From Isurus oxyrinchus (Eukaryota): a stretch of 64,000 nucleotides of DNA. Of the stretch, positions 1 through 53,723 are shown piece after piece. The notes beneath the pieces were generated by a model that ran no database searches, had not been told where the DNA came from, and saw nothing but the letters and a program-made list of their open reading frames with translations. Location of the stretch: the NCBI GenBank assembly GCA_026770705.1, contig JANJGN010000071.1, positions 1,488,001-1,552,000 of the forward strand, written 5' to 3'. The position numbers and the translations under genes are program-made. Every line of letters begins with the position of its first letter. Position 1 is the stretch's first letter.

Positions 1-426
1 AGCACATACATAATGACAATGACTGCTATCATAACTCCTAAAATTCCTAATTAACATGACTCCCAGTTACACTCCCTTTAAGGCAACAGACCAAAAATAG
101 ATGTTAGATTTAAAACAAAATCAGCAAGTTAACCCAATGCCCCGGACAGTGGAATTCCAAATGCATTTTCCCCAACTTCAGTTCTGTTGGAGAGCAGACT
201 TCTGCACAAACAGGGTCCTGAGGACCATGAACCAATGTAGAATGAACTTTTCCACTTTTGTGTCCAGGATTCTCTTCCATCCGGTGTGATACCTTGTGGA
301 GTTCATTGTGTGTCCTGTAGATGGTCCACACTGCAGCCACTGTGCCCCAGTGATGGAGGGGGTGGATATCGAGTCTAGTGGATCAACAAAACATCCAGAG
401 TTAAATATTGATATTTCTCTCCCCAG

Positions 427-804
427 TTGGATTGTCACAAGAGTGGAAAGGTGACACTCCACGAGAGGTGACAGCACAGGAAGGTTCGTGTGTACAGATT
501 CCATGTCATTACAGTTATCCATCAGATTTGATAAAGAAACCACAGGTCGGATTCTGGAAAATGAGAAGATACATACGGAACAAATGGTCTAAATGGTCTA
601 TAGCCTTTCACTCCAAGGATCACAGTCGCGAGTTACAACGGTTCCGCCATCGGACCCGGCTGTCTGGAGACCTGAAAGATGGCGACTGTTCCCTGATTAT
701 AAACAACATCAGACGGGAAGATGCAGGACATTATTTTTTCATGATAAAATTTGGCAATCGTCCGAGCCGTAACGTTTCCCCTGAAACCCAGCTTCACGTT
801 TCTG
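427..804 (+). CDS. Siglec/CD22/MAG-like receptor gene A, N-terminal V-set Ig exon (intact frame; essential Arg replaced by Met)
   Basis: Acceptor ttctctccccAG ends at 426 and donor GTAAGT starts at 805; phase 1/1, 126 codons. Siglec-type V motifs: W..., GSCVQIPC, GFW, RTRLSGDLKDGDCSLIINNIRREDAGHYFF. Codon 741-743 is ATG where the paralogues have AGA. Confidence 0.9.
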
Positions 805-1029
805 GTAAGTGCTGTGTTATAATTACTCAACAATTCACATCCAACACTCAATGGGAAATAATAGTGTTTGATTTGCTTGTTTTTTGGCCGTGTTAACCAG
901 CGTCACTATTTTTAATGATTTGTCTATTTCTGCTCCCAGATCCATGAGCTTATTGTGTGTGATTGAATCCACATCATAGCTGTAATGTAAACCGAGCTGA
1001 GGGGTGATGACACCTCCCCCCTGAGTGAA

Positions 1030-2030
1030 GTATCTCCTCCCCACTACACCTTCCACCCCTCACACTGTCCGTGTAAACCCCCGTCCCATCTCCACCCTTT
1101 CTTTCACCTCCAAAGTCCTTGAACGTGTTTCCATCTCCCGAATCCGTTCCCATCTTTCCCGGAACTCCATGTTTGAATCCCTCCAATCAGGTTCCCACCC
1201 CAGCCACTGTGCTGAAACAGCTCTTATCAAGGTCACAAATGGCATCCTGTGTGACTGTGACAAAGGTCAACTTTCCCTCCTCGTCCTTCTCGATCTGTCT
1301 GCAGCCTTTGACACGCTCGACCACACCATCCTCCTCCAACACCTGTCCACTGTCGTCCAGCTGGGTGGGACTGCTCTCCCCTGGCTCCATTCTTATCCAT
1401 CTCATCGTAGCCAGAGAATCACTTGCAATGGCTTTGCAGCATCATCTGAACAGTGTTAGTTTTCACCTGTCCACTGAGGATCCCCAGCTCTACCTCACCA
1501 CCACCTCTCTCGACTCCTCCACTGCTGCTAAATTATCAGGCTGCTTATCCGACATCCAGTACTGGATGGGCAGAAATTCCCTCCAATTAAATATTGGAAA
1601 GACTGAAGCCATTGCCTTCATTCCCCGCTCCAAACTCTGTTCCCTCGCTACCAACTCCATTCCTCTCCCTGGCAGCTCTCTGAGATTGAAGCCAATCTGT
1701 TCACAGCTTTGTTGTCCCATTTGATCCTGAGATGAGCTTCCGGCCTCATATCTGCGCCCTCACTAACACCGTCTATTTCCACCTCCATAACGTCGTACAA
1801 CTTCACCCTGTCTCAGCTCATCTGCTGCTGAAACCCTCATCCACGCCTTCATTACCTCCAGACTCAACTGTTCCAACAAACGCTCTACACTCCATAAACT
1901 TGAGGCCATCCAAAACTGCTGACCACGTCCTTACTCACACCAAGTCCCGTTCCCTTATCTCCCGCTCTGCTCAATGACCGAGACTGGCTCCTGGTCAAGC
2001 AAAGTCTCAATGTCACAATTTTTGAATATT
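1030..2030 (+). mobile_element. L2/CR1-clade LINE reverse transcriptase fragment, degenerate
   Basis: ORF 1025..1459 has RT motifs (RPISTL..SKVLER, ETALIKV, LLDLSAAFDTLDH); downstream are DPQLY and LQLNIGKTE motifs with frameshifts. Confidence 0.85.
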
Positions 2031-2084
2031 TTTCCTCCCTATTACAGTAATCTCCTCCTTTATCTTCATCCACGGCAACATTCC

Positions 2085-2960
2085 CTATCTCAGGAGCCTC
2101 CTCCAGTCCCTACAACCCTCTCTATCTCAGGAGCCTCCTCCAGTCCCTACAACCCTCCTATCTCAGTACCCTCTTCCAATCCCGAAAACCATTCCTATCA
2201 CTGCAAACTCCTCCGGACCCAACACCCCTCCCTATCTCTTTAACCTCCTCAAGCCCCGATAACCCTTGCAATATTTGTAGCGTCCTCCAATCCTAACAAC
2301 CTCCCCTATCTCTGCAACCTCCTCCAGACCGAATACCTCTCCCTATCTCTGTAAGCTGCTCCATCTCTTACAACCCTTCATATTTCTGTAACCTCCTCCA
2401 GCCCACTACAACCCTCCCTATCTCTGTAACCTCCTCCAGTCCCTAAGAGTTTCCTTTATCTCTGTAACCTCCTCCAGCCATTATAACCCTCCCTATCTCT
2501 GTATCCTCCCTCAGCCCCAGCCACACTCCATATCTATGTAACCTCGTCCTGCCCCTACAACCCTCCCTATCTCTGTAACCCCATCCTGCCCCAAAAACTC
2601 CCCCTTCTCTGTAAACTCCTCCAGTCCCTGCAACCTTCCCTACCTCTGGAACCTCCACCAGCCTTTCCAACCCTCCCTACCTCTGCAATCCGTCCAGCCC
2701 CTACAACTCTTCCTATCCCTGTAAACTCCTCCTGCCCCTAAAACCGTCTCTGCCCTTGCAGCCTCCTCCAGTCCCTACACGCTCCCCATCTCCATAAACT
2801 CCTCAAATCCCTACAGCCCTCCCTATCTCTGCAACCTCCTCCAGGTCCTACCACCCTCCCTCTCTGCGTAACCTCCTCCAGTATCTACAGCCTTCCCTAT
2901 CTCTGTTACCTCCTCCAGCCCCCACAAACCTCCCTATCTGTGTAACCTCCTCCAGCCCCT
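2085..2960. repeat. About 37-bp minisatellite (ctctgtaacctcctccagcccctacaaccctccctat)n
   Basis: Tandem degenerate copies directly visible, following the L2 fragment. Confidence 0.9.
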
Positions 2961-3039
2961 GATGGAAGGTGGGTCGAGCGGGTCAGTCACTTGCATGTTT
3001 ATTCTGCAGCTTTAATATTTTAAGAAGGTAAGAATGTAG

Positions 3040-3860
3040 GAACATAAGAAATAGGGACAGGAGCAGGCCATTCGGCCCCTCGAGCCTGCTCTCACTGATC
3101 TGGTTGTTGCCTTAACTCCATTTTCCTGCCTGTCCCCCAAACCCTTGACTCCCTTGTCGATCAAAAACCTGCCTCACTCAGCCTTGAGTCTATTCAATGG
3201 CCCAGCCTCCACTGCTCTCTGGGGAAGAGAATTCCACAGGCTAGCGCCCCTCTGAGAGAGGAAATTCCTCCTCATCTCAGTCTTAAATGGGAGAGCCCTC
3301 ATTCCGAAACTGTGCTCCCTGGTTCTAGATTCCCCCACGAGGGGGAAACATCCTCCCAGCATCCACCCTGTCAAGCCCCCTCGGAATCGGATATGTTTCA
3401 ATAAGGTCACCCCTCATTCTTCTAAACTCCAATGGATACAGGCCCAACCTGCTCAACATTTGCTCACAGGACAAAGCCTTTAATCCCGGGAATCAGCCCA
3501 GTGAACCTCCTCTGAACTGCCTCCAATGCAGAGTCTATCCCTCCCTAAGTAAGGAGACCAGAACTGTACACACTGCTCCTGATACAATCTCCCCTTGTGC
3601 AGCTGTTGCAAGACTTCCCTCCTTTTATACTCCATCCCTTTGCAATAAAGGCCAACATTCCACTTGCCTTCCTCATTCCGTGGTGTTCCTGAATGCTGAC
3701 TTTCTGTAATTCATGTACAAGGACACCCAGATCCCTCTGTACTGCATTCTGCATCCTGTCTCCATTTAAATAATATCCTGTTTTTCTATTCTTCCTGCCA
3801 AAATAATTTGTTGCCATTTTCCTCAGTATTGACCATCCCCCCAATTCAGCCTCATCTGTA
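3040..3860 (-). mobile_element. CR1-like LINE 3' fragment
   Basis: Minus-strand ORFs with CR1 C-terminal motifs (QRDLGVLVH, RRNFLSQR..LWNSLP) and the typical 3' tail. Confidence 0.85.
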
Positions 3861-3921
3861 AAGTTGAGTCTAGTGGATCCACAAACCATCCAGAGTTAAA
3901 TATTGAGATTTGTCTCCCCAG

Positions 3922-4290
3922 CTGAACCCTCACAAGAGTGGAAAGGTGACACTCCACGAGAGGTGACAGTGCAGGAAGGTTCGTGTGTACAGATTCCATG
4001 TCATTACAGTTATCCATCGTGTCTGGAAAACCAACCGCGAGGTGGAGTCTGGTTTAATAATGAGAAACAGATTCCCTAGGATCCCATTGCCTTTCACTCC
4101 AAGGATCACAGTCACGAGTTACCACGGTTCCACCATCGGACCCGGCTGTCTGGAGACCTGAAAGATGGCGACTGTTCCCTGATTATAAACAACATCACAC
4201 GGGAAGATGAAGGACCTTATTTTTTCAGAATAGAATTTGACAATGGTCCGAGCCATAACTATTACCCTGTAACCCAGCTTCACGTTTCTG
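3922..4290 (+). pseudogene. Second Siglec-like V-set exon with in-frame stop
   Basis: AG at 3920-3921 and GTAAGT at 4291. Translates AEPSQEWKGDTPREVTVQEGSCVQIPC...NNEKQIP*DPIAF...EDEGPYFFRIEF. TAG at 4077-4079 is in frame; the Arg codon AGA (4227-4229) is retained. Confidence 0.9.
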
Positions 4291-5213
4291 GTAAGTGCTG
4301 TGTTATAATTACTCAACAATTCACATCCAACACTCAATGGGAAATAACACAAACTGTGACGTTTACATATTAACACAAAAGACAGTTTATTATAACACAC
4401 TGTCTGATTCTCAATAACCTGGTGATAGCTTCCAGTTCAGTCCTAAAACAACCTCTAATACTCACTTTAATATCAATGATTAAATGTATTGACTGTGTCC
4501 ATCAATGTTATCAGGTTATCCACTCCCATCGATCTCCCTAACCCTGTCTCGAAGTCTGACATATCGACAGAAGAAAGATTCACATTTCTATTGCACCTTT
4601 CACCATCTCAGCACGGACCAAATCACTTCACAGCCAATGAGCTGATTCCTGAATTGTAGTTACTGTTGTAATGTGAGAAACACAGCAGCCAATTTGCACA
4701 CAGCAAGCTCCCACAAATTGCAAAGTAATAAATGGCCCAGATCGCTGAGTGAATGATGGGGTAGTGCACTCCAAACTCTGGTCTGCTCCACCACCCTCAC
4801 CCACTATTATCAGTTCAAGTTTTTTGGAGTGAACATGTATTAAGCTGAGAGACAGAAACACCAAAGTAACATGTACGGACATCCTGCATTAGCCATTATA
4901 GTCCACATGTTACACAGCAAAACCCCATAAACTACAGTTTGTTTAACAACAGATCATCTGCTTTTATTGATAAAAATTCACCTCTGACATTGCAGAGCAA
5001 CTTCCTGCTGACCCCCCGACNNNNNNNNNNNNNNNNNNNNNNNNNNNNNNNNNNNNNNNNNNNNNNNNNNNNNNNNNNNNNNNNNNNNNNNNNNNNNNNN
5101 NNNNNNNNNNNNNNNNNNNNNNNNNNNNNNNNNNNNNNNNNNNNNNNNNNNNNNNNNNNNNNNNNNNNNNNNNNNNNNNNNNNNNNNNNNNNNNNNNNNN
5201 NNNNNNNNNNNNN

Positions 5214-7775: not shown

Positions 7776-8440
7776 CAAGGTCATCTGTCCCTGACATCAC
7801 CTCATGTGACTCAGGGTCTTGACAGGTTTTAGTCAACAGTGAACAGGCAGAAATTGGAGTTTGATTAATATTCATATATTTCATTGATAAAATTATCAAT
7901 AAATGATACATTGAAAAGGGTGACCTGTATCTATTGAATGACCAGATCATCACGAAACACTTTACAGTCAACGATATATGTTTGAAGGAATGTCATGTTG
8001 TAAGGTAGGAAAAACGGCACCAACCTGTGCACAGCAAGATCCCACAAAGCAAGGTGACAGTGATCTGATAATGTATTATTTTAATGAGGTTGTTTGATAC
8101 GTATATAGAGATCACATGTATAGGGTGGGTCACTAATGTCCCTTTAGTGAGGAAAACCTGTCCATTTTAACAGGTCTGGGAGTGTATGTGACTCCAGTCT
8201 GTAACACCAACATGGTTAACTCTTACCTGCCCTCTTAACTGGTCTCCCAGTTTGGGACAAACCAGTGGTTCAGGAGGAAGACTCCCCACCACCTTCTCAA
8301 GGGGAAACTAGGGATGGACAATAAATGTCAGCATTGCCCGAGAATGAGTATTTAAACACTGAGTGAGTGTATCGCTTCTCGAGATACATCGGAGCATCAT
8401 TGTAAACCTGTAGTGCAGTAATTAATGGCTGTTTTTACAG

Positions 8441-8537
8441 GTAGAGACTCCAGTAAATGGACAGTAGGATTGCTCACGGCTGGGATCATGTTGAGTGTTT
8501 TCCTGGCTGGAATCTTCATCTTCATCTGTGTGAGAAA
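8441..8537 (+). CDS. Gene A transmembrane exon (uncharged TM): xRDSSKWTVGLLTAGIMLSVFLAGIFIFICVRK
   Basis: Acceptor gtttttacAG ends at 8440 and donor GTAAGT starts at 8538; phase 1 in, phase 2 out. About 23 hydrophobic residues followed by a basic stop-transfer. Confidence 0.85.
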
Positions 8538-8924
8538 GTAAGTCTGAAGATTTAACTTGATTTTAATTTAAATATTTACTTCAAAGTTCTTTCCTTAAGT
8601 CGGTGATTGTTTCCCTTGGGATCAGCACCAGGTCCCTCTCTGTAAGTGATCCCTGTGTCCACTCTGATCCGGAGAGAACCTTTCATTGTCCTGTATCCAG
8701 GTAAACGATCAGGAGAACCAGAGATTCCTCACTCTGCACGATTACTCCTGGATTGTATCAGGTCACCTTGTGATTCCACACAACCGGAGTGGTGGTTATA
8801 ACCATCAGGAATGATTGAACAGTCTGGGTATTGGGACTATTTCGACAGTTTTTTCAAAGGGCCAGCACAGGCACAATGGGCTGAGTGGCTTCCTCCTGAG
8901 CTGTGAGATTTTTAATTCTTACAT

Positions 8925-9375
8925 CGAATGTGGCTGTCACTGGTGAGGCCGCTATTAATTGCCCATCTCTAATTGCCCTTGAGAAGGAGGTAGTGAGCTG
9001 CCTTCTTGACCCGCTGCAGTCCATGTGGTGTAGGTACACCCACAGTGCTGTTCGAGAGGGAGTTCCAGGATGTTAACCCAGCGACAGTGAAGGAACGGTG
9101 ATATATTTCCAAGTCAGGATGGTGAGTGACTTGGAGGGGAACTTCCAGGTGGTGGTGTTCCCATGTGTCTGCTGCCCTTGTCCTTCTAGATGGTAGAGGT
9201 CGTGGGTTTGGAAGGTGCTGTTGAAGGATCCTTGCTGAGTTGCTGCAGTGCATCTTGTAGATGGTACACACACTGCTGCCACTGTGTGTTCATGGTGGAG
9301 GGAGTGAATGTTTAATGTGTTGGATGGGTGAGGATCAATCGAGCTGCTTTGTCCTGGATGGTGTCGAGCTTCTTA
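8925..9375 (-). mobile_element. LINE 3' end (CR1/L2-clade, shark-type); duplicate copy at about 11845-12290
   Basis: Reverse complement of the tail seen on + at about 18600-19030 (LLQQHLPNPRPLPSRRTRAA...). Confidence 0.8.
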
Positions 9376-9508
9376 ATTCTGTGCTTTGTGCAGAAGTGAT
9401 TTAAAGAGACAGTCCAGTCGTTGGTGTAAGGTTTTAGTGGGCTCTGTATCTGTGGTGCACTGACTCTCTGCTATATGATAACCACAGTGTGATATTGTGT
9501 TATTGCAG

Positions 9509-9590
9509 GAGAAAGACAGCGATGGAGGAGAGAGTTTCAGGGACCAGTGACATTGCATTGAGCCCCAGTCCACTCTCTGTGAATCACCAG
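9509..9590 (+). CDS. Gene A cytoplasmic exon, copy 1 (RKTAMEERVSGTSDIALSPSPLSVNHQ)
   Basis: ttattgcAG acceptor and CAG|GTACAG donor; 82 nt, phase 2 in, phase 0 out. Exactly joins the TM exon to the terminal exon in frame. Confidence 0.8.
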
Positions 9591-9725
9591 GTACAGGAGC
9601 TGTTTACACTCACTCCAAAGCTTCAATCTCAGTGTGTAGACAACATATGTCCTAGATTCCCTGCCCAGTTACCCACTGATTTGTACCTGTGGAGTCAGCA
9701 ATGGTTCAGTATCATGCTGTCTCTC

Positions 9726-10459
9726 TGTTATGACACAGCAACTGGTAAAGGCTGTTGTTTAAAATCCCAGAAGGAAACTTTAAACAACTGTCATAACCTA
9801 TATTTCCCAGTGGAATGTTTGAGATGCAGCTTTAAATTCAGGAATAAGACCACCAGTTCTCGAGATGGGTTTATATCAAACTACATAAGCCATTTATTAA
9901 TTAACACAAGTTAAACATTTGCACATGGCTACAAGCTAGTATTATCATGGCTTTTTAACAAATTCCCAAACTAATCTCCTCTAACACAACCCATAGACTT
10001 TAGGCAGATTCCAAGCAAAGCATTTTCACCTCACAAATTCCAAATGAGGTTCCTTTCACTTTGGTTCCTTTGCAGACAGGTGTAGGCTTACAGCTGCTTT
10101 GATGTTACAAGCCTCTGCTCTGCACACACAAAACTGCTCAAGTTATACCCAGCACTTTTCTTTGAATGTAAATTCTCATTGTATCATCAGGACCTTTGAT
10201 CTCCATCTCTTCTAACTATAAATCCCCTTTCATTGTCTCAATTTTATTAGTAATATAAATGTTGATTGTTTTAAGATTTCGATCTCAGGCACTGAATGCG
10301 CTGTTTAAAAATGCAAATTACCTCTTTGCCTCCCTGTTTACATCTCAAAACTACTATACATCAAAGTACCCAGACTGGCTGGCTTTAATCTAATTTATAC
10401 ACACACAGACACACCCACAGAATAAACCTCTATTTTAATAAAAATAATTTCCAATAACA
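9726..10459. mobile_element. Solo-LTR-like element (duplicate at about 12646-13377)
   Basis: Bounded by TGTTAT...ATAACA terminal inverted repeats, about 730 bp, non-coding; no clear target-site duplication. Confidence 0.5.
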
Positions 10460-10629
10460 TGATATTCATTAATCGCATCATGTCAGTCTCTCTCTCTATC
10501 CCTACCTCTCTTTCTTTCTCTCTCTCTCTCTCTCTCATTCTCTCTCTGATTACAAGGTTCATGTTAATGAGCCTCAGATCAGACACTTGAGTGCAGAATC
10601 CAAACCAGCTCTCGCCAGAGCCATTACCG

Positions 10630-10880
10630 AGGGATTGCTGCACTGTCAGAGGGTCAGTACTGAGGGAGTGCTGCATTGTCGGACGGTCAGTACTGAGGAA
10701 GTGCTGCACTGTCGGAGGATCAGTGCAGAGGGAGTGCTGCACTGTTGGTGGGTCAGTACTGAGGGAGTGCTGCACTGTCGGAGGGTCAGTACTGAGGGAG
10801 TGCTGCACTGTCAGAGGGTCAGGACTGAGGGAGCGCTGCATTGTCGGATGGTCAGAACTGAGGGAGTGCTGCACTGTCAC
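10630..10880. repeat. 30-bp DeuSINE-derived minisatellite (cagtactgagggagtgctgcactgtcggagggt-type); also at 13545-13812, 16260-16350, 23680-23960, 26035-26135
   Basis: Tandem copies directly visible; they generate the VQHSLSTDPPT pseudo-ORFs. Confidence 0.9.
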
Positions 10881-11021
10881 ATGTGGTTTCTATCATATGA
10901 CATGAGAGAGAGCGTTAAACCTACTGAGACACGACCGACACTAGCGAGGCTGCACAATAATTTAACCCTATCAGTGCCAGTAAATAATGTGAGGATGTCT
11001 TCTGTTTCCATTTCTCTGTAG

Positions 11022-11270
11022 GGTAAACAGAACGTGCTGATTACTGAGCCCCGGAACACAACCAGAAACACAACTAGTGAGGGGGAGACCCCAGCTCCCC
11101 GGGGTCTCTCTGAAGGTCCAGTGGGAGGCGATGCTGGACATGGAATCCCTGACAATCCCGACGAGCTTCTCTACGCCAATCCCCAAGTCTTCAGGGTGCG
11201 CAGTGGTGATGGGTCTGTCCACAGGGAAGAGCAGACGGAATACGCACAGATCAGGTTCGAGCATAACTGA
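11022..11270 (+). CDS. Gene A terminal cytoplasmic exon, copy 1: degenerate ITIM (LLYANP) plus ITSM (TEYAQI)
   Basis: Acceptor tttctctgtAG ends at 11021; phase 0, open to TGA at 11268-11270. AATAAA at 11804-11809. Confidence 0.85.
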   Translation, partial: GKQNVLITEPRNTTRNTTSEGETPAPRGLSEGPVGGDAGHGIPDNPDELLYANPQVFRVRSGDGSVHREEQTEYAQIRFEHN

Positions 11271-12427
11271 ATGAGAAATGGGGAATGGGAGTGAGGAGGT
11301 GTGGGTGTGGGGGTAGGGATTGAGATTCCTGGGAACAGGAAATAACCCACCGGGGGACAGGGGGAGAGAGGGAGGAAGGGATGGGATTGGGCTGCGGTTG
11401 GTGTGGTTTGGAATGAAATGCTTCTCCAGAGAGGACTGGATGCTGAGCCATTGGGGACCGAGATTCACTGTCTCTCTCTGTCTCTCTGTCTCTCTCTCTC
11501 TCTCTCTGTCTCTGTCTTTCTTTCTGTGTCTGTCTCTCATTCTCTATCTCCAGCTCCTCCTTTAAGATGCCCGTTAAGAACTGACTTTGTTGACTCAGCT
11601 GTTGGTCTCCTGTCCCTAATATCTCCTCATGTGCCTCAGAGTCAGGTGAAGATGTCACTAACAATCCCCGGATGAGCCTTGGGACATTTTGCTACATTGA
11701 AGGTGCTAAAGAAATGCAAGTTGTTGTAGTAACTCTGATCTGCCTTGATTAACAATGGAACCACAAAGGCTCCTTCGACAGGGCGTGTGTGCGGCAGGGT
11801 CACAATAAATACATTGAGCTGTGAGATTTTTAATTCTTTCATCGAATGTGGCTGTCACTGGTGATGTCAGCGTTAATGCCCATCTCTAATTGCCCTTGAG
11901 AAGGTGGTGGTGAGCTGCCTTCTTGACCCGCTGTGGTCCATGTGGTGTAGGTACACCCAAAGTGCTTTTAGAGAGGAAGTTCCAGGATTTTGACCCAGCG
12001 ACAGTGAAGGAACGGTGATATACTTCCAAGTCAGGATGGTGAGTGACTTGGAGGGGAACTTCCAGGTGGTGGTGTTCCCATGTGTCTGCTGCCCTTGTCC
12101 TTCTAGATGGTAGAGGTCGTGGGTTTGGAAGGTGCTGTTGAAGGAGCCTTGCTGAGTTGCTGCAGTGCATCTTGTAGATGGTACACACACTGCTGCCACT
12201 GTGTGTTCATGGTGGAGGGAGTGAATGATCAATGTGGTGGATGGGGTGTGGATCAATCGGGCTGCTTTGTTGTGGATGGTGTCAAGCTTCTTGATTCTGT
12301 GCTTTGTGCAGAAGTGGTTTAAAGAGACAGTCCCATTCGTTGGTGTAAGGTTACAGTGTGCTCTGTGTCTGTGCTGCACTGACTCGCTGCTATATGATAA
12401 CCACAGTGTGATATTGTGTTATTGCAG

Positions 12428-12509
12428 GAGAAAGACAGCGATGGAGGAGAGAGTTTCAGGGACCAGAGACATTGCATTGACCCCCAGTCCACTCTCTGTG
12501 AAACGCCAG
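12428..12509 (+). CDS. Gene A cytoplasmic exon, copy 2 (RKTAMEERVSGTRDIALTPSPLSVKRQ)
   Basis: Same splice sites, length and phase as 9509-9590. Confidence 0.7.
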
Positions 12510-13953
12510 GTACAGGAGCTGTTTACACTCACTCCAAAGCTTCAATCTCAGTGTGCAGACAACACGTGTCCCAGATTCCCAGCCCAGTTACCCACTGATT
12601 TGTACCTGTGGAGTCAGCAATGGTTCAGTATCATGCTGTCTCTCTGTTATGACACAGCAACTGGTAAAGACTGTTGTTTAAAATCCCAGAGGGAAACTTT
12701 AAACAACTGTCATAACCTATATTTCCCAGTGAAATGTTTGAGATGCATCTTTAAATTCAGGAATAAGACCATCAGTTCTTGAGATGGGTTTATATCAAAC
12801 TACCTGAGACATTTATTAATTTACACAAGTTAAACAAATGCACGTGGCTACAAACTAGTATTATCATAACTTTATAACAAATTCCCAAACTAATCTCCTC
12901 TAAGATAACCCATAGACTTTAAGCAGATTCCAAGCAAAGCATTTTCACCTCACAAATTCCAAATGAGATTCTTTTCACTTTGGTTCCTTTGCAGACAGGT
13001 GTAGGCTTACAGCTGCTTTGATGTTACAAGCCTCTGCTCTGCACACACAAAACTGCTCAAGTTATACCCAATGCTTCTCTTTGAATGTAAATTCTCATTG
13101 TATCATCAGGACCTTTGAACTCCATCTCTTCTAATAATAAATCCCGTTTCATAGTATCAATTTTATTAGTAATATAAACATTGATTGGTTTAAGAATTCA
13201 CTCCCAGGCTTTGAATCCTCCTTTTAAAAATGCAATATGCCTCTTTACCTCTTTGTTTACATCTCAAAGCTACTATACATCAAAGTCCCCAGACCGGCTG
13301 TCTTTAATCCAATTAAAACACACACACACACACCCACAGACTAAACCTCTGTTTAAAAAGAGAATTTCCATTTACAATACATACATGAATAGATTCATAA
13401 TCCTTCCTCTCTCTTTCTCCCTCTCTCTCTCTTTCTCATCATGTCTCTGATTACAAGTTTCATGTTATTGAGACTCACACCAGGCACCTGAGTGCAGAAT
13501 CTAAGCCAGCACTCGCCAGAGACATTTCAGAGAGATTGCGAGACTGACAGAGGGTCAGTACTGAGGGAGTGCTGCACTGTCAGAGGGTCAGTACTGAGGG
13601 AGCACCGCACTGTCGGAGGGTCAGTACTGAGAGAGTGCTGCACTGTCTGAGGGTCAGTACTGAGCGAGTGCTGCACTGTCGGAGGGTCAGTACTGAGGGA
13701 GTGCTGCACTGTCGGAGGGTCAGTATTGAGGGAGTGCTGCACTGTCAGAGGGTCTGTACTGAGGGAGTGCTGCACTGTCGGATGGTCAGTACTGAGGGAG
13801 TGCTGCATTGCCATAGGTGGTGACTTTTATATGATATGAGAGAAATTTAAACCCACTGAGACATGACTGACACTAACGAGGCTGCACAATAATTTAACCC
13901 TATCAGTGCCAGTAAATGATGTGAGGATGTCTTCTGTTTCCATTTCTCTGTAG

Positions 13954-14202
13954 GGTAAACAGAACGTGCTGATTACTGAGCCCCGGAACACAACCAGAGA
14001 CACAACTAGTGAGGGGGAGACCCCAGCTCCCCGGGATCTCTCTGAAGGTCCAGTGGGAGGCGATGCTGGACATGGAATCCCTGACAATCCCAACGACCTT
14101 CTCTACGCCAATCCCCAAGTCTTCAGGGTGCCCAGTGGTGATGGGTCTGTCCACAGGGAAGAGGAGACGGAATACGCACAGATCAGATTCAAGCGAAACT
14201 GA
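13954..14202 (+). CDS. Terminal cytoplasmic exon, copy 2: LLYANP plus ITSM TEYAQI
   Basis: Intact acceptor and open frame to TGA; AATAAA at 14872-14877. Confidence 0.8.
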   Translation, partial: GKQNVLITEPRNTTRDTTSEGETPAPRDLSEGPVGGDAGHGIPDNPNDLLYANPQVFRVPSGDGSVHREEETEYAQIRFKRN

Positions 14203-15889
14203 GTGTGAAACGGGGAGAGGGGGTGAGGATGTTTGTGGGTGGGGGCAGGGCTTAAGATTCCATGGAACACGAGACAACCCACTGGGGGACAGGGGGAGAG
14301 AGGGAGGAAGGGACTGAATGGGTCTGTGGTTGGTGTGGTTTGGAATGAAATGTTTCCCCAGTGACGACTTGATGCTGAGTCATTGNNNNNNNNNNNNNNN
14401 NNNNNNNNNNNNNNNNNNNNNNNNNNNNNNNNNNNNNNNNNNNNNNNNNNNNNNNNNNNNNNNNNNNNNNNNNNNNNNNNNNNNNNNNNNNNNNNNNNNN
14501 NNNNNNNNNNNNNNNNNNNNNNNNNNNNNNNNNNNNNNNNNNNNNNNNNNNNNNNNNNNNNNNCCCTCTCTCTCTATCTCTCTATCTCTCTCCCTCTGCT
14601 TCTCTGTCTCTCTCTCTCTCTCTCTTCCTTTAACATGGTCCTTATTAACTGGCTTTGTTAACTCAGCTTTTGGTCACCTGTCCCTAATATCTCATTATGT
14701 GTCTCAGAGATGGATTTATATGTGGTTAACAATCCCCTGAAGAGCTTTGGGATAGTTTGCTACATTATGGGTGCTATATAAATGCAAGTTGTTGTAGTAA
14801 TATTGATCTGCCTCGATTCAGAATGGAAACACGGAGGCTCCTTCGACAGGGCGTGTGTGCAACAGGCTCGCAATAAATGCATTGCACAGCAACAACTAAG
14901 CATGTCCTTTGATGCTGATGCATCCCAGTCCTGCTGTGTGGACACATCACAACCGAGGGACTGCCTGACTGCGTGCAGCCAACATGGCCGAATAGTCATT
15001 AGCAGAAATGTGACGTCACTCAACCTTGTTAACATTTCAGAAAGTGCTTTCTGAATTCTGCAACTTGTTTATTCTGTGATAGATTACAAGAAGCCTTTGC
15101 ATTTTCTATAATATTACATTTATTGTCACAAGGGATTGAAATGCCCAGATAACTCTGTACAGATATATTTTTATTAAACATCTTACTCTAGGACAACCTT
15201 CCTGCTCCAATCTGTTATTTCATATCATTACATTTCCCCACCAAATTATCAAAAATTCCTGTGTCCACATTTATCATGAAAATTTCCCATGTAAACATGT
15301 CACACTGTACTTACACTCTCTTGCCAGTGGTGGTGCTGTAGGTGCACCAAATTCTTTCTCAGAGACTGCAGGACATCTCCCAGTTATCTTTACAATATTA
15401 TTAAGATACAGGAAATGGGGACAATCTTCACCCTGTGGTTACGATATTGTTAAGACAGAGAGCTGGTGAAACCTCCCCCCCTCCACAGAGTTAAGGGCAG
15501 GGTCAGTTCTGGCTGTGAGACCTCCACACTCATTCCACGCCCCCTGTTCATTTCCCCATCCCTGCTCTAACTTAGCGCTTTTACACATGAAGTGCGGGGC
15601 CCAGAGGAAAGTGTGGAAGGGCTGCCCATCGCAGCTAGAACAAGGTTCCTGGCGGGTCTCCCAGGATAGAATGGCGGAGTGGGGGAGGGGGAGCAGTGGG
15701 GTCAATATCCACACCCTCCCCAACACCCCCATCACTGTCACTACCAAGAGGGAATATCAGTCTCGAGACAGAGGCCAGAGTGTGAGCAACTGAGACAAAC
15801 TGAGACTGAAACCAGCATCAACCAGTGTCCCAGCAAATAAGGTCAGAGTAGGGGAAATGGGGAAAAGACAGAAAGGTTCTTAATCTGAA

Positions 15890-16260
15890 TGCACGCAAGA
15901 GGGAATCTAACCATCTCTCCTTGATATTCAATGGCAGCACCATCACTGAATCCCCGAATATCAGAAGCCTGGGGGTTACCATTGACGAGAATCTGAACTG
16001 GGTCAGCCACATAATCATTGTGGCTACAAGAGCAGCTCAGAGGCTGGGAATCCTGCGGTGAGTAACTCACCTCCTGACTCCTCAAATCCTGTCCATCATC
16101 GGCATAGCACAAGGCAGGAGTGTGAATGGAATACTCTCCACTTGCCTGGATGAGTGCAGCTCCAACAACACTCAAGAAGCTCGACACCACCCTGGACAAA
16201 GCAGCCCCGCTTGATTGGCTCCCCCTCAACCACAGCAACACTCACTCCCTCCATCGTCAA
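15890..16260 (+). mobile_element. LINE ORF2 C-terminal fragment
   Basis: LGVTID..LNW, MEYSPLAWMSAAPTTLKKLD motifs; same family as 16977-19050. Confidence 0.75.
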
Positions 16261-16539
16261 TGTGCTGAGGGAGTGCTGCACTGTCAGAGGGTCAGTTGTG
16301 AGGGAGTGCTGCACTGTCAGAGGGTCAGTAGTGAGGGAGTGCTGCACTGTTGGAGTGCGATAGAGATTAAATTATTAAGAGAGAGAGAAAGCGAGATAGA
16401 AAGATGACAGAGAAAGAGAGTGAAAAAAAGGCTTAAACCCACTGAGACACGACTGACCCTAACCCGGCTGCAGAATAATTTAACCCTATCAGTGCCAGTA
16501 AATGATGTGAGGATGTCTTCTGTTTCCATTTCTCTGTAG

Positions 16540-16788
16540 GGTAAACAGAATGTGCTGATTACTGAGCCCCAGAACACAACCAGAGACACAACTAGTGAGG
16601 GGGAGACCCCAGCTCCCCGGGATCTCTCTGAAGGTCCAGTGGGAGGCGATGTTGGACATGGGAACCCCGACAATACCGACGACCTTCTCTACACCAACAT
16701 CAACTTTTCAAAGCTGCCCAGCGGTGACAGGACTGTGCACAGGAGCGAGGACACGGAATACACAAAGATCAGGTTCCAGAAAAACTGA
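16540..16788 (+). CDS. Terminal cytoplasmic exon, copy 3: ITIM (LLYTNI) plus ITSM (TEYTKI)
   Basis: Intact acceptor ending at 16539 and open frame to TGA; CD33-related-Siglec-like tandem tyrosine motifs. Confidence 0.85.
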   Translation, partial: GKQNVLITEPQNTTRDTTSEGETPAPRDLSEGPVGGDVGHGNPDNTDDLLYTNINFSKLPSGDRTVHRSEDTEYTKIRFQKN

Positions 16789-16976
16789 GTGTGAAACAGG
16801 GAGCGGGGCTGTGGGGTGTGTGCAGCCAACATGGCCAAATAGTAATGAACACAAATATGATGTTGCTCAACTTTTTTTTATTGGTTTTAACTGAGCTTTC
16901 TGAATGCTGCGCCTTTTTCCATGCTGTAAAAGATTGTGAGAAGCTTATGGGTTATGTATAATTTTACATCTGTTAA

Positions 16977-19050
16977 TACAAGGTGAGGTGAGAGTGACTG
17001 CCCTTAACATTAAGGCTGCATTTGACCGAGTGTGGCCTCTGGGAGCCCGAGCATAACTGGAGTCATTGTGAATCAGGGGTGGTACGAAAGTATAATAATT
17101 TGCATAATATTTTCCTGGTTTGTTGTAAACTAGGTTTATGGGTGTGAGTGTAGATGGGTCTGTCTGTGTGGTTTAATTACATCTGGAGTCAGGTAGACTG
17201 CAAGTCTGAGATTATCAAAAGAAGCTAGATGTAGAAATGTACTTGAAATGCTAATGAGAACACATGGAGGCTGTGTTAACATGTAAGGTGTGAAGGGGTT
17301 GTTTAGATTTCAAAGGGATGTTGGTCTGTTTAGGACAAGCCCAATAAGCAAAGCTAAGGAGTTTTTTTTTAATTTTACCCAAACTTCATTGACAATATTG
17401 GCAACATGAAAGTTTATATTATGGGAAAGGTACAGTTCCAAAGAATTTACACATCAAAGAGAGAGAAACATGTATAAAGGAGAATGAAAGGCTATGTTGG
17501 GGGCCATGTAAGATCTAACAGGAGTGTGTGAAACAGGCTTGAAGAAGCCTCCAGGCATTTGTGCATAAGTCTGTTATGTTCAGTAAATAAAACTGGAGAA
17601 ATCCATTTCGAATTCCAGTGTCAAGTGTGTGCTGTGTTAACTTGCTGATTTTGTTTTTAATCTAAAATTGTATTTTGGACTGTTGCCTTAAACGGGCTCT
17701 GTAACTGGGAGTCAGGTTAATTAGGAATTTGAGAATTTATTTTAGTTGTAACTAACCGTGGTATTATGTCTGTGCTTGAAATCTTTTATTTTGTTAATAA
17801 ATATCTTAATTGAATTTTTAAAATCTCTAAAGGTTGTGGTCAACTCATTACTCCTGAATTCAGTGCACGCTTCTTGTAATAAATACAAATTGCAAACTAT
17901 TGTGATAGCGTGACCAATTTTCCCTTGTGGATTTGGAGCACCAAGCACACATCATCTGCCATGTCATGTCACAGGGAAAACTCTCCACTCGTTGGATTCA
18001 TACCAAGTACAAAGGAAGGTGGTTGTGGTTGTTGGAGGTCAGTCATCTCAGTTCCAGGATATCACTGCAGGAGTTGCTCAATGTAGTGTCCTAGGCCCAA
18101 CCATCTTCAGCTGCTTCATCAATGACATTCATTCTATCAGATGGTCAGAATTATGGATGGTCACTGATGATTGCACAACGTTCAACATCATTCATGACTC
18201 ATCAGATGCTGAAGCAGTCCATGTCCAAATGCAGCAAGACCTGGACAATATCCAGGCTTGGCCTGACAAGTGGCAAGTAACATTCATGCCACACAAGTGC
18301 CAGGCAATGACCATCTCCAACCAGAGAGAATATATCCATCTCCCCTTAATGTCCAATAGCATCACCATTGCTGAATCCCCCACTATCAACACTCTGGGGG
18401 TTACCATTGACTAGAAACTGAACTGGACTAGCCATATAAAAACTGTGACTATAAGAGCAGGCCAGAGCCTGGGAATCCTGTGGTGAGTAACTCGCCTACG
18501 GACTCCCCAAAGCCTGTCCACCAACCTCAAGGCACAGGTCAGGAGTGTGATGGAATACTCTCCACCTGCCTAGGTGAGTGCAGCTCTAACAACACTCAAG
18601 AAGCTCGACATCGTCCAGGACAAAGCAGCCCCGCTTGATTTGCGCCCCGTCCACAAACATTCTCTCCCTCTACAACTGACGCACAGTGGCAGCAGTGTGT
18701 GTACCATCTACAAGATGCAACACAGGGAGTCACCAAGCCTCCTTAGACAGCACCTTCCAAACACATGACCACTACCATCTAGAAGGACAAGGGCAGCAGA
18801 AACATGGGAACACCGCCACCTGGAAGTTCCCCTCCAAGTCACTCACCATCCTGACTTGGAAATATATCACCATTCCTTCACTGTCGCTGGGTCAGAATCC
18901 TGCAACACCCTCCCAAACAGTTCTGTGGGTGTACATACACCACAGGGACTGCAGCAGCTCAAGAAGGCAGCTCACCCCCATATTCTCAAGGACAATTAGG
19001 GATGGGCAATAAATTCTGGCCTAGCCAGTGTCAGTGAATGAATACAAAAA
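16977..19050 (+). mobile_element. LINE (RT to 3' tail) inserted in the 3' UTR of terminal exon 3, itself interrupted by an LTR-like element
   Basis: RT motifs (DIKAAFD-like, GVAQCSVLGPTIF, DDCT); UTR-homologous sequence resumes at about 19055. Confidence 0.85.
17080..17972. mobile_element. About 0.9-kb LTR-like insertion nested in the LINE
   Basis: The LINE sequence gaatcagggg|...|gggaaaactctcc is contiguous in the copy at about 45335-45355 but split here; the insert begins TG and ends CA. Confidence 0.6.
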
Positions 19051-31994: not shown

Positions 31995-32450
31995 GTAACA
32001 TCCCCTCAGCATCCACCCTGTCAAACCCCCCACCACCTCAGAATCTTATATGTTTCAATAAGATCACCTCTCATTCTTCTAAACTCCAATGGATACAGGG
32101 CCCAACCTGCTCAACATTTCCTCACAGGACAAACCCTCTTCATCCCAGGAATCAGCCCAGTGAACCTCCTCTGAATTGCCTCCAATGCAGAGTCTATCCC
32201 TCCCTAAGTAAGGAGACCAGAACTGTACACACTGCTCCTGATACAATCTCACCAACGCCCTGTGCAGTTGTAGCAAGACTCCCCTCCTTTTATACTCCAT
32301 CCCTTTGCAATAAAGGCCAACATTCCACTTGCCTTCCTCATTCCGTGCTGTTCCTGAATGCTGACTTTCTGTGATTCATGTACAAGGACACCCAGGTCCC
32401 TCTGTACCGCATTCTGCTGCCTCTCTCCATTGAAGTAATATTCTGCTTTT
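31995..32450 (-). mobile_element. CR1-like LINE fragment
   Basis: Highly similar to about 3350-3790. Confidence 0.85.
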
Positions 32451-32483
32451 TGATGTCCTGTCTCTTCCCTTGTTGCCTTTCAG

Positions 32484-32785
32484 GAGTGACGTCAGAGGGA
32501 TGGTCTATGAAGGCGCTGCCTCAGAGGGCCATCAGCAGCTCTTGTGTGGTTATTCCGTGTAGCTTTGACTTTCCTTCCCACTCTTACACAGCACTGCACG
32601 GAGCTTGGTATAAATATTGGTATAGATGGAAATATACCATCACATACACCAAAGATCCCAATTATGGGGTGGCCACATTCGTGGGACGTGCTAAAATAAT
32701 TGGCGACTTGGAAGGGAAGAATTGTTTGGTGAGGATTGACAGTCTCAGAGCTGAAGACAGTGACGTGTATTACACCCAATTCTAA
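32484..32785 (+). pseudogene. Gene B MAG/sialoadhesin/CD22-like V-set exon, truncated in strand F by a Gypsy fragment
   Basis: cctttcAG acceptor; GVTSEGWSM...SSCVVIPCSFDFP...GAWYK...FVGRAKIIGDLEGKNCLVRIDSLRAEDSDVYY, then retroelement sequence and a stop; no G strand or donor site. Confidence 0.85.
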
Positions 32786-49604: not shown

Positions 49605-50215
49605 TAAGCTTTTCATAAATTGAGGGATTGAGTACAAACACAGGGAGGTTATGCTGAACATTTATAAACCTCTGGTTAGGTCACAACTAGAGTATTGTGT
49701 CCAGTTCTGGTCTCCTCACTTTGGGAAGGAAGTGAGGGTCCTTGAGAGGGTGGGGAGGAGATTGAGCAGAATGGGTCCAGGGATGAGGGATTTTAGCTAC
49801 AAGGTTGGGTTGGAGAAGCTGGGGTTGTTCTCCTTGGAGCAAAGGAGATTGAGGGGGGATCTGATCGAGGTGTACAAGATGATGATGGGTTTAGATAAGG
49901 CAGACAAAGAGAAGCTGTTGCCATTAGCTGATGGGACAAGGACTGGGGGACACAGATTGAAGGTTTTGGGCAGAGGGGGGATTTGAGGAGGAACTTTTTT
50001 ACACAGCGAGTGGTAATGAGCTGGTACTCTCTGCCTACGAGGATGGTGGAAGCGGAGACGATGAACGATTTCAAAAGGAAATTGGATGGACACTTGAGGG
50101 GAAATAACCTTGCAGGGATACGGGGATAGAGCGGGGGAATGGGACTGACTGGATTGCTTTACAGAGAGACAGCATGGAGTCGATGGGCCGAATGCCGTTC
50201 TTCTGTTCCATGATG
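49605..50215 (+). mobile_element. CR1-like LINE 3' fragment (partial inverted copy at 54712-54970)
   Basis: LVRSQLEYCVQFWSPH, RRLRGDLIEVYK. Confidence 0.9.
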
Positions 50216-50245
50216 AGATTGTTGCTGTGCAAAGCTTTAAACTTC

Positions 50246-50365
50246 CTTTCACTGTTTGTCTCTCCCAGACACAGACTCCAGTGATAGTGATAACCACAGC
50301 CACAAGGAATATCACAGCTCGTATTCCCAGGATCAGGATCACGTGCAGAATCTCTCCTCCACTGT
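50246..50365 (-). CDS. Transmembrane exon with intramembrane Arg (SGGEILHVILILGIRAVIFLVAVVITITGVCVWERQTVK), activating-type Siglec-like receptor fragment
   Basis: Minus-strand acceptor ttctctAG, phase 1; hydrophobic stretch containing CGA (50319-50321). The expected donor reads AAG|GAAGT, so it appears mutated. Confidence 0.75.
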
Positions 50366-52034
50366 CTAGAGAACACACAGAAAGAAATCATCACTGACTC
50401 TCCGCTTTCAATCTCTCACTCTGGCTGAACAATCAAGCTTCATATCACTGCAACATTTGCTGTAATATTGACCCATCCACTGGGATTCAATGTGGAATGA
50501 ATGTTTTCATTGTAAACACTCTAAGAGTGGACAATCGCAACTTTCCCCTTAGCGTGGAACATTGGTGAGAATGGATCATTGTGCTGTTGGACTCCCTGTC
50601 CAATGTTTCTCTCCATCGCTGTGTACAGGATTGTGCTGTAGAAAATTCTGGAAACGTTTAGTGCAGGGTGGAAATCCATCTCGGACGCGTGTGCGAATCG
50701 GGCAGGATCAAGATGGACTCCCCTTCGGACTTACACCCCCCGCTTAATAAACAGTTCCAATCTTTACCCAGAGAGAGAGGAGAATGTGGAACTCGCTCCC
50801 ACTGGGAGTGTGTGATGTGAACAGTATCGATGTATTTAAGGGGCAGAAGGGTCGGTAACCAGAGGGACACAGATTGACGAACCGGAGGGGGAGATGAGGA
50901 GAATTTGTTTTGACAGAGCGAGTTGTTGTGATCTGGAAGGTGCTGCCTGAAAGGGCAGTGGAAGCAGATTCAATAGGAACTTTCAAAAGGGAAATTGGAT
51001 AAACACTTGAAGGAGGAAGATGGGGGCAAAGTGGAGTGGTGGTTAGTGGATCTGATGGGATAGAACATTGAAAGACCTGGCACAGGCTCAATGGGCTGAA
51101 TGGCCTCCTCCTGTGCTGTATCATTCTCCGCTTCCATGATCTCTCCCCCAGTCAGTAACCACTCCAGATCCCTCTTGAAGGTGACAGAGAATCAGCAACC
51201 ACCACACCCACTGACAGCACATTCCCGAGGATCACTACTCTCTGGGAAAAGATGAACTCCCCAACATCCAGCCTATTCCTGCTTCCCAGAGAGTGTAAAC
51301 CCTTCAGGGAGGCGCTGAGGAAGTTTTCAATAAAATGACATCAAATCTACCGTTTGAGAAATAATTGAATTCCGATGAACTCACAGCTTGTGGAGCAATC
51401 TGGGAAGTAGAGTTGCTGGGAAAGCTGGGAAACACAAGGATTAAGGGCTACAATGCCACCACTGGTGGGAGGCTGTAACTACAGCGTGACGTTTACATAG
51501 GCAGTCATCATTATAAACAGGGGCATTGCACATAATGGGAATTATGTGCACGGAAATAGTGAGAACATTATGTAAGCTTTTCACCAGCAGGAATTCTCTT
51601 CCTAAACCTCTCCAACTCTCTCTTACTCTCAGATACACAAAGAAAATCACACAGAATCAGATAAGGAAGAGTTGGGTTGGTGATTCATCAAAGGGTTAGG
51701 TTTCAGGAAGCTTCTTAAAAGGAGAGAGAGAGTTGGAGACGCAGAGAGTATCTGTGAGTGTCTCTATGCATCTGAGTGTCTGTAATAGTAATTTCCATAT
51801 TCTTCCATAAATATGAATGGGAACACAAATCCCAGAATTCAGGCCAACTCTCCAGTGCAGTACTGAGGGAGGTCAGGTAACCCATGAGGGAGTGAGTGTT
51901 AGTGTTTGTATGTGAGTGTGTCTTTGTGTGTGGTCATATATGTGTGTCTGCACGTGTCTATTTAGGTGTGTATGTTCGATGGTGTTTGTGTGGTGTTCAA
52001 ATCTGAGAGAGATGTTGAAGTCTGTGTAACTCAC

Positions 52035-52185
52035 GTTCCACACTGATGGTTATGAACCCATCCACTGCTCCATGTTCTTTCTCTGCCACACACTGATAGT
52101 CTCCAGTGTCCCTGGATGTAACATGAGGAATCACCAACCACAGCTCATTGTTGGAACTTGTTCTGTTCATTTGGACATTCAGATG
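52035..52185 (-). pseudogene. 5'-truncated second C2-set Ig exon (HLNVQMNRTSSNNELWLVIPHVTSRDTGDYQCVAEKEHG...ITISVE)
   Basis: DTGDYQC motif and phase-1 donor GTGAGT; the 5' half is replaced by unrelated repeat sequence with an in-frame TGA. Confidence 0.8.
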
Positions 52186-52510
52186 TCATGGCAGGAATCA
52201 AGAAGCCCGTTCACAGGATTACCAACAGAAAGTGAACAACAATTTATACTCAATGGGAAGAGAGTGCTGATTGGTTGGCAAGTGGTCTCTGATAGGTGGA
52301 GGTGTTGCCATGGAGAATGGTGTGTGCGAGATGTAAAGTTTAGACAGCTTGTCTCTTCATTCAGCAATAATCAAATAAAGATCAATTAACTTCTATCGAC
52401 TTTGAAGCACTTAGAGAGGCCTTAGAATGTGGATACAGAGAACGGGCTGCACTGTCAGAGGGTCTGCGCTGAGGGAGTGCTGATGTAGAATGAAAGGTGT
52501 ATGTAATTAC

Positions 52511-52807
52511 CTTGCACTGTTAGTACGAGGGTCCGCTCCGATGAAACAGATGGATAACTCACTCTGCAGCTGAGATTGTGTCCGTGGTGTTTGAGTGATG
52601 GGATCAGGGTCAGAACAGAAGCATAGGACAGAGTGACACCATGCTGAGTTACAGTGTTTGAGACTGATCCAGGTACGTCAGTGGGAGTGTCCCAGGTTAA
52701 GACAGGTGCTGCTGTTCCATTGCACGTTGTGTTGAAGGTGCAGCTTACATCCACACGCTTTCCTGCAATAATTTCAGCAGGGAATATCGTGGGTTTATCT
52801 GTGAAAT
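52511..52807 (-). CDS. Siglec-like first C2-set Ig exon (intact frame; no V exon upstream on this strand)
   Basis: 297 nt, AG/GT phase 1/1; DFTDKPTIFPAEIIAGKRVDVSCTFNTTC...LTW...LSCRVSY...LTVQ. Confidence 0.85.
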
Positions 52808-53427: not shown

Positions 53428-53723
53428 ATTTCACAGATAAACCCACGATATTCCCTGCTGAAATTATTGCAGGAAAGCGTGTGGATGTAAGCTGCACCTT
53501 CAACACAACGTGCAATGGAACAGCAGCACCTGTCTTAACCTGGGACACTCCCACTGACGTACCTGGATCAGTCTCAAACACTGTAACTCAGCATGGTGTC
53601 ACTCTGACCTATACTTCTGTTCTGACCCTGATCCCATCACTCAAACACCACGGACACATCACAGCTGCAGAGTGAGATATCCATCTGTTTCATCGGAGAA
53701 GACCCTCGTACTAACTGTGCAAG
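53428..53723 (+). pseudogene. C2-set exon copy with a 1-nt deletion frameshift
   Basis: 296 nt versus 297; the frameshift near 53658 gives ..HHGHITAAE* before the second core Cys. Confidence 0.88.

What the first reader, a model, noticed from the sequence alone, without database searches (positions are those of the whole stretch)
8441..16788. One TM exon followed by three interchangeable ITIM/ITSM terminal exons: a possible signalling-tail cassette
Seen: a single TM exon (8441-8537) is followed by two copies of the linker exon (9509, 12428) and three copies of the terminal exon (11022, 13954, 16540). All have intact splice sites, compatible phase and open frames. Copies 1 and 2 each have their own AATAAA (11804, 14872). 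No ectodomain or TM exon is visible between them. Inference: alternative last-exon choice could give one ectodomain tails with different signalling (ITSM only versus ITIM+ITSM). Alternatively, the downstream copies are young duplication debris.
Basis: partly seen in the sequence, partly recalled or inferred. Interest (0 to 1): 0.7.

Follow-up and report, generated by a model that had tools for sequence, protein, structure and literature searches.

The report
Accordion signalling tails on shark Siglecs
In a huge shark family of Siglec-type immune receptor genes, about a hundred copies of a repeated inner-tail unit sit behind the membrane anchor, and the repeats are likely spliced end to end into one longer signalling tail rather than chosen one at a time, which would let these receptors vary how many and which signalling motifs they carry.

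Summary
The exons are real, but the reading changes. The window is one gene of a very large lamniform-shark Siglec-like family (219 exact TM-donor matches). Its 2.9-kb duplication has one breakpoint, found 101 times in the cluster. The gene grammar is TM-[linker-tailA1]n-linker-(tailA2 or tailB), with n = 0 to at least 4. Tail A1 is never last. It holds an in-frame internal GT donor 16 nt from its end (11254|11255), in 79 of 79 copies. White-shark and basking-shark RefSeq models splice exactly there onto the next linker, giving doubled tails (19 of 42 proteins); none ends at A1's own stop. One white-shark gene also has single-tail isoforms. So copy 1 is likely an internal exon, not an alternative last exon. 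Copies 1 and 2 here carry the same motif class. Copy 3, the only ITIM tail, is the leftover end of a deleted neighbour gene. This particular gene has a stop in its second V exon. The junction was not seen directly in RNA here. The scan noted this family before on other DNA, but not this tail design.

The parts
427..804 (+). First V-set exon (Siglec/CD22-type), open; the Siglec F-strand Arg is replaced by Met. The leader exon lies about 4.9 kb before the window start (L002:5105-5144)
   Evidence: Pfam V-set 5.5e-13, Ig_CD22 7.2e-10
3922..4290 (+). Second V-set exon with the Arg, but an in-frame TAG at 4077-4079 (open in the twin locus L005); no C2 exon found before the TM
8441..8537 (+). Uncharged TM exon, ends in phase 2
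   Evidence: joint 8537-9509 GT..AG in run X2
8897..11814 (+). First copy of the tandem unit (part of the TM-linker intron, linker, tail, part of the old 3' UTR)
9509..9590 (+). Linker exon L1, 82 nt, phase 2 to phase 0
11022..11254 (+). Tail exon A1 up to its internal donor (LLYANP, TEYAQI); predicted internal exon
11255..11270 (+). Internal 5' splice donor (GT with +5 G) and the old end of the frame with its stop codon
11804..11815 (+). AATAAA followed within about 6 nt by the duplication breakpoint (2-nt microhomology); the original cleavage region was not copied
12428..12509 (+). Linker exon L2, accepts phase 2 from the internal donor or from the TM
13954..14202 (+). Terminal tail exon A2 (LLYANP, TEYAQI); no GT at the donor position
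14872..15178 (+). A2 poly(A) signals: AATAAA 14872 and ATTAAA 15173 (the second lies outside the duplicated unit; present in 30 of 31 TM-bearing A2 genes)
16262..17883 (+). Remnant 3' end of a deleted single-tail neighbour: part of its last intron, tail exon B 16540-16788 (ITIM LLYTNI + TEYTKI) and 3' UTR with AATAAA at 17586, 17796, 17878

Best explanation
A single tandem duplication copied the linker exon and last exon of a shark Siglec-like receptor gene, and the upstream tail copy is likely used as an internal exon, so that the repeats are spliced in frame into one longer cytoplasmic tail. Shown: the breakpoint falls about 6 nt behind the AATAAA and leaves out the rest of the 3' end. The upstream class (A1) carries GT with +5 G just before its stop. 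That donor is phase 2, like the linker's acceptor, so each unit adds 105 residues with two tyrosine motifs. Unit number varies from 0 to at least 4 between paralogues. Inferred: the incomplete 3' end makes A1 a poor last exon and the internal donor wins. Unequal crossing-over among more than 200 paralogues spreads and resizes the array. Skipping of units yields shorter tails as minor isoforms. Predicted signalling: A modules (YxN, Grb2-type, plus ITSM-like) are stacked in front of a terminal A module or an ITIM+ITSM B module. The window's gene would give an A+A tail. Its third tail is a deletion remnant, and the gene is probably defective because of the stop in its second V exon.
For: Internal GT in 49 of 49 A1 exons (48 with +5 G) and 30 of 30 more from other contigs; in 0 of 42 terminal A2 exons; B exons have GT (51 of 51) but never +5 G. 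Splicing at that donor gives one open frame to the last stop in 32 of 34 multi-unit TM loci (1 frameshift, 1 cut by a contig end) and 6 of 7 further loci, one with four tails and 8 tyrosine motifs. RefSeq models carry exactly this junction (YAQIR|RKT) in 10 of 20 white-shark and 9 of 22 basking-shark proteins, 8 and 3 genes; none of 64 retrieved proteins contains A1's own end. One white-shark isoform (XP_041037217.1) joins the same donor out of frame to the downstream tail acceptor, which is hard to explain without transcript evidence (inference). Upstream tails of this genome group with upstream tails of white shark (100/95 and 100/88). RNA-type contigs cross AATAAA 11804 and the breakpoint without a break, and the A1-specific UTR lies at intron-like depth (weak).
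Against: The joint 11254-12428 is not among the 15 of 220 joints shown, and no direct read test was obtained. RefSeq models are predictions whose RNA support I could not see; reads from single-tail paralogues could create the skip isoforms by mis-mapping. The donor is weak (6 of 11 positions match the recalled U1 consensus, like the linker's own donor). The A1/A2 split at the donor is one inherited event linked to the unit's 3' end, not 79 independent ones; GT is probably ancestral because B has it. pN/pS is near 1 in every tail class, including single tails, and depletion of null changes is weak (A1: 1 observed vs about 5.5 expected, P=0.03, with a UTR-based indel baseline). A1 keeps AATAAA in 45 of 49 copies and an intact stop, so termination there remains possible. 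A search for short proteins spanning the junction found none.
Confidence: 0.65

Rival explanations
1. Alternative last exons: each tail exon is terminal with its own poly(A) site and the cell picks one. A composite version is also possible, in which A1 is sometimes terminal and sometimes internal, as in the secreted/membrane IgM switch.
For: A1 keeps an intact stop and mostly AATAAA (45 of 49). All acceptors are intact. White-shark isoforms X4 and X5 use only the downstream tail.
Against: 0 of 64 homologous proteins end at the A1 stop. The breakpoint removes the sequence right behind the hexamer, and the second signal used by A2 genes is outside the unit. Contigs cross the first signal. AGTAAA replaces AATAAA in 4 of 49 A1 units vs 0 of 43 A2 units (not significant on its own).
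Confidence: 0.17
2. Neutral hitch-hiking: the repeat is a by-product of unequal crossing-over in a fast-turning cluster. A1-bearing genes are little expressed or use one tail only, and the doubled RefSeq proteins are prediction artefacts.
For: pN/pS about 1. 12 fetched loci carry A1-L-A2 with no TM or first linker found upstream and still have mostly open tails, so open frames alone prove little. The window's own copy has a V-exon stop and its twin a linker frameshift.
Against: The arrangement is shared with white shark and basking shark models. The A1-L-B genes form a stable haplotype with their own 3' flank at 31 cluster sites. The same weak donor is used in 11 gene models of two species, once out of frame.
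Confidence: 0.15
3. Assembly or haplotype artefact.
For: The cluster lies on unplaced contigs, and some blocks are near-identical (L039-L042 vs L055-L058), so gene counts may be inflated.
Against: Units are about 10% diverged. One junction recurs 101 times. It is crossed by contigs of independent runs, and the design recurs in two other assemblies' gene models.
Confidence: 0.03

Closest known systems
CD33-related Siglecs (Siglec-5, -7, CD33) and MAG
   Same: V-set domain with best PDB hits Siglec-5 (7.5e-13), MAG and Siglec-7; C2-set domains in most paralogues; ITIM plus ITSM-like tail in class B; clustered, fast-turning family with gene conversion.
   Different: Hundreds of copies rather than a handful (PMC4384638 passage: 4-5 genes in three primates; about ten in human is recalled). 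A tandemly repeated tail unit is not known to me in mammalian Siglecs (recalled; not found in 10 searches).
CD22 (Siglec-2) multi-tyrosine tail
   Same: Several tyrosine motifs of mixed type in one tail: ITIMs plus a YxN Grb2 site (PMC3342095 and PMC5302901, passages). Doubled shark tails would stack YxN, ITSM-like and ITIM motifs.
   Different: The shark tail is built from whole-exon repeats of variable number. YANP lacks the +3 Val of the preferred pYXNV, so Grb2 binding is only a prediction.
Composite internal/terminal exons (IgM secreted/membrane switch) and read-through gene fusions that use a new donor in a last exon (both recalled)
   Same: A donor just before a stop codon competes with a downstream poly(A) signal.
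   Different: Here the downstream target is a duplicate of the same exons, so use of the donor lengthens a signalling tail, and the unit is repeated up to at least four times.
RefSeq models in Carcharodon carcharias (e.g. XP_041037215-221) and Cetorhinus maximus (XP_078389744.1, XP_078389619.1)
   Same: Same TM, linker and tails, same junction; 73-88% identity to tail A1 for most hits.
   Different: Automatic predictions under unrelated names (MAG-like, CD33-like, uncharacterized); I found no paper describing them.

Membership tests
Siglec family | N-terminal V-set domain of Siglec/CD22 type | tested here: met
   Pfam V-set and Ig_CD22 above cut-off for the window's first V exon and the next gene's V; PDB hits
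Siglec family | Conserved sialic-acid-binding Arg in the V-set domain (PMC13233462 passage) | tested here: inconclusive
   Present in most paralogues and in the window's second V, which carries a stop; replaced by Met in the window's first V
Siglec family | [quoted passage not shown] | tested here: inconclusive
   Met in most paralogues; not met in this copy, its twin L005 or L012 (V-V-TM); a basking-shark model P0011 is also V-V-TM
Siglec family | Binding of sialic acid | not testable with these tools
   needs glycan array
Inhibitory CD33-related-type Siglec | Uncharged TM, ITIM followed by ITIM-like/ITSM motif (consensus recalled) | tested here: inconclusive
   Met by class B tails; class A tails (copies 1 and 2 here) have Pro at +3 and so no ITIM. 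Orthology to mammalian CD33-related genes not tested
Alternative last exon cassette | Each exon has its own acceptor and open frame | tested here: met
Alternative last exon cassette | Each exon ends transcripts at its own poly(A) site, mutually exclusively | tested here: not met
   By gene models only: 0 of 64 proteins end at A1's stop and 19 join both tails; contigs cross the first signal. Direct 3'-end data not available
Tandem internal exon repeat through a donor in a former last exon | In-phase donor before the stop, restricted to non-terminal copies | tested here: met
   GT with +5 G in 78 of 79 A1, 0 of 42 A2, 0 of 51 B
Tandem internal exon repeat through a donor in a former last exon | Junction present in transcripts | tested here: inconclusive
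   In RefSeq models of two species; not among the joints shown for this species' runs

The most novel reading that the evidence does not exclude
Mackerel sharks turned the last exon of a Siglec into a stackable signalling module. Across about a hundred genes, copy number (1 to 5 or more tails) and regulated use of one splice donor set how many YxN/ITSM modules precede an ITIM tail. One receptor gene can then make adaptor-type, inhibitory or mixed tails: a tunable paired-receptor system inside single genes.
Probability: 0.3. Interest if true: 0.78.

Novelty: new variant of a known kind. Interest (0 to 1): 0.55.

Why it matters
Immune receptor families usually diversify by changing the number of outer domains or by pairing inhibitory and activating genes. 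Here the signalling tail itself appears to expand and contract by whole-exon repeats, with a traceable origin: one duplication, a clipped 3' end and one donor base. It is a clean natural case of a last exon becoming an internal exon, testable with existing shark RNA reads and a minigene. It also exposes a Siglec-like cluster of over 200 TM exons that I could not find described.

Tried and rejected
pN/pS by tail class: about 1 everywhere, uninformative. Null-mutation depletion: weak and baseline-dependent. Linker variants specific to the downstream position: too few and shared for a family-level test. The 3' UTR haplotype specific to downstream B tails was found, but its presence in RNA remains untested. 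Short proteins spanning the junction: none. Duplication by recombination between two repeat copies: rejected, since the breakpoint lies 12-37 nt before the nearest repeat start and has a 2-nt microhomology. The junction match on contig C24 is a chance hit without the gene. Pfam has no family for either tail. Contig depth cannot rank exons and is used only as a hint; low cover of the A1 UTR may partly reflect the tool's repeat filter at 11461-11561. No structure or complex prediction was run, since the tail is predicted to be unstructured and no binding claim is made.

Full report
Observation. The TM exon, two linkers and three tail exons are at the stated places with canonical splice sites and open frames. 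Units 1 and 2 form a 2.9-kb tandem duplication, 89% identical overall. Tails 1 and 2 read LLYANP ... TEYAQI and end FEHN and FKRN. Tail 3 reads LLYTNI ... TEYTKI and ends FQKN. By the recalled consensus patterns only tail 3 has an ITIM; all three have an ITSM-like motif.

Gene and family. Upstream lie a leader (L002) and two V exons of Siglec/CD22 type. The first lacks the Siglec Arg, the second has an in-frame stop, and no C2 exon was found here or in the 98.7% identical twin L005. So this copy is probably defective, unless the second V is skipped. The 5-Gb genome holds 219 exact matches to the TM donor pattern, 268 to the linker acceptor and 336 to the tail acceptor; some may be haplotype duplicates. 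The closest named proteins are from white shark and basking shark, so the source is a lamniform shark by similarity. Among the 25 representatives returned, those named from zebra, epaulette and whale shark and catsharks show a single ITIM-type tail where a tail is present. All YANP-type tails in a 41-row tree form one lamniform-only clade (100/99). The ITIM tail B is therefore likely ancestral.

Census. I fetched 10 kb behind all 66 TM-pattern sites of contig C52. Architectures: L-B 31, L-A1-L-B 14, L-A2 11, L-A1-L-A2 6, L-A1-L-A1-L-A2 3, TM alone 1. A1 (FEHN) is always followed by the same junction and another linker, and is never last. The junction pattern has 102 matches, one of them a chance hit outside the cluster. 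The breakpoint sits about 6 nt behind AATAAA with a 2-nt microhomology, so there was one founding duplication. Loci chosen for close-set junctions carry three or four A1 units before a B tail. A1-L-B genes share a private 3' flank: 31 cluster hits of a diagnostic 24-mer, all behind an A1 unit (28 by position against, 3 by fetched loci); 9 more hits lie on large scaffolds, where the flank is a dispersed repeat. The window's A1-A2-B order was seen in only 3 near-identical loci. From 16262 on, the window matches the end of single-tail gene L100 at 98.4% over 4.4 kb, so tail 3 is a deletion remnant. It could be reached in frame from a linker only by bypassing tail 2 and its poly(A) signals.

The internal donor. 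Six of the first 16 homologues carry two tails in one chain, joined at YAQIR|RKT. With cluster members, 10 of 20 white-shark and 9 of 22 basking-shark proteins do (8 and 3 genes), and 0 of 64 proteins contain FEHN. In the window this is a phase-2 donor at 11254|11255, matching the linker's phase-2 acceptor. The donor has GT in 49 of 49 A1 exons (48 with +5 G; the Glu of FEHN supplies that G), in 0 of 42 A2 exons, and GT without +5 G in 51 of 51 B exons. One A2 exon with a frameshift and one B exon cut by a contig end were left out. Thirty further A1 exons all have GT and +5 G. Joining at this donor gives an open frame in 32 of 34 and 6 of 7 multi-unit loci. One white-shark gene has isoforms with the doubled tail (X1, X2, X6), with B only (X4, X5), and with the donor joined out of frame to the last exon, leaving the A motifs only (X3). 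These are predictions whose support I could not view. The out-of-frame form suggests real introns (inference); the skip forms could come from mis-mapped paralogue reads.

RNA. Contigs of four runs guessed to be RNA (3 studies) were laid on 8300-17000. They show TM-linker and linker-tail GT..AG joints. The A1-linker joint is not among the 15 of 220 joints shown. Contigs cross AATAAA 11804 and the breakpoint (X2 11562-11902, X4 11733-11902) and also AATAAA 14872 (X4, X7). Summed contig depth over the A1 UTR bins (0-31 and 12-155) resembles an intron bin (48-180) and is below the A2 UTR bin (170-4390). The tool warns that such depths cannot rank parts of a gene, so this is a hint only. Direct evidence for the junction in this species is still missing.

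Selection. pN/pS is 0.7-1.6 in all classes with more than three copies, including single tails, so it says nothing. Null changes are fewer than a flank-based expectation in downstream B (0 vs 5.9) and upstream A1 (1 vs 5.5), but the baseline is crude. Twelve loci without a detected TM also keep mostly open tails. The clean A1/A2 split at the donor reflects one event plus linkage and is not independent proof of selection.

Mechanism. Shown: single breakpoint, clipped 3' end, in-phase donor confined to non-terminal copies, variable unit number, matching gene models in two species. Inferred: the donor outcompetes termination, tails are concatenated at 105 residues per unit, and unit skipping gives shorter forms. 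Predicted: YANP keeps the YxN core of Grb2 sites (PMC5302901 passages: pYXNV) while losing the ITIM, so doubled tails would mix motif types as CD22 does (PMC3342095 passages).

Literature. Ten full-text searches found no description of this cluster or tail design. I saw passages of PMC8455134, PMC8615218, PMC4384638, PMC3342095, PMC5302901 and PMC13233462, and only listings for the rest. No supplements were read; Supplementary file 9 of PMC8455134 may list shark Siglec families. Subscription journals are not covered. The IgM and read-through-fusion comparisons are recalled. Earlier notes of this scan cover other features of the family in this genome; look-ups by sequence and by words found nothing on this tail.

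Verdict. A real, family-wide feature, most likely a tandem internal repeat of a signalling tail with optional skipping, not a three-way last-exon switch. New variant of a known kind; interest 0.55.

Noticed in passing
G000 contigs C52, C71, C121, C150, C189 and others: Siglec-like mega-cluster: at least 219 near-identical TM exons, about one per 60 kb on C52; ectodomains vary widely in V and C2 number (one has at least nine copies of one Ig exon in 10 kb, L110).
   Followed up: partly
L084, L087-L097 (C52, C71): Twelve A1-linker-A2 tail pairs with no TM or first linker found upstream; two have a divergent V exon (Siglec-13-like in basking shark) about 9 kb before. The matching upstream tail type is attached to a TM in white-shark models P0001 and P0026.
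   Followed up: partly
window 49800-50387 (- strand): Open stretch with a TM-like segment holding an Arg, also in L002, L003 and L004: likely the activating-type anchor of the same cluster.
   Followed up: no
window 51522-52576 and 53658-54712: 1055-nt inverted repeat, 98% complementary, carrying C2 exon copies in both orientations: a young local inversion-duplication.
   Followed up: no
window 32447-32773 (+): V exon of the divergent Siglec-13-like subfamily (82% to P0007).
   Followed up: no
window 58900-61900 (+): Start of the next paralogue: leader, intact V with the Arg (59878-60245) and C2 exon (about 61560-61860).
   Followed up: partly
L033, L025, L076 about 500-1300 nt behind the B stop: The 3' UTR of downstream B tails is a different variant (about 85% identical) of a dispersed repeat than in single-B genes and lacks their first AATAAA; a ready marker for RNA tests.
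   Followed up: partly
L039-L042 vs L055-L058 (C52): Near-identical blocks of four genes about 1 Mb apart: segmental duplication or uncollapsed haplotype.
   Followed up: no
P0010 and isoforms (basking shark LOC144671591): Gene models that splice a linker exon on into the leader and V exons of the next gene, suggesting read-through between neighbours or a model artefact.
   Followed up: no
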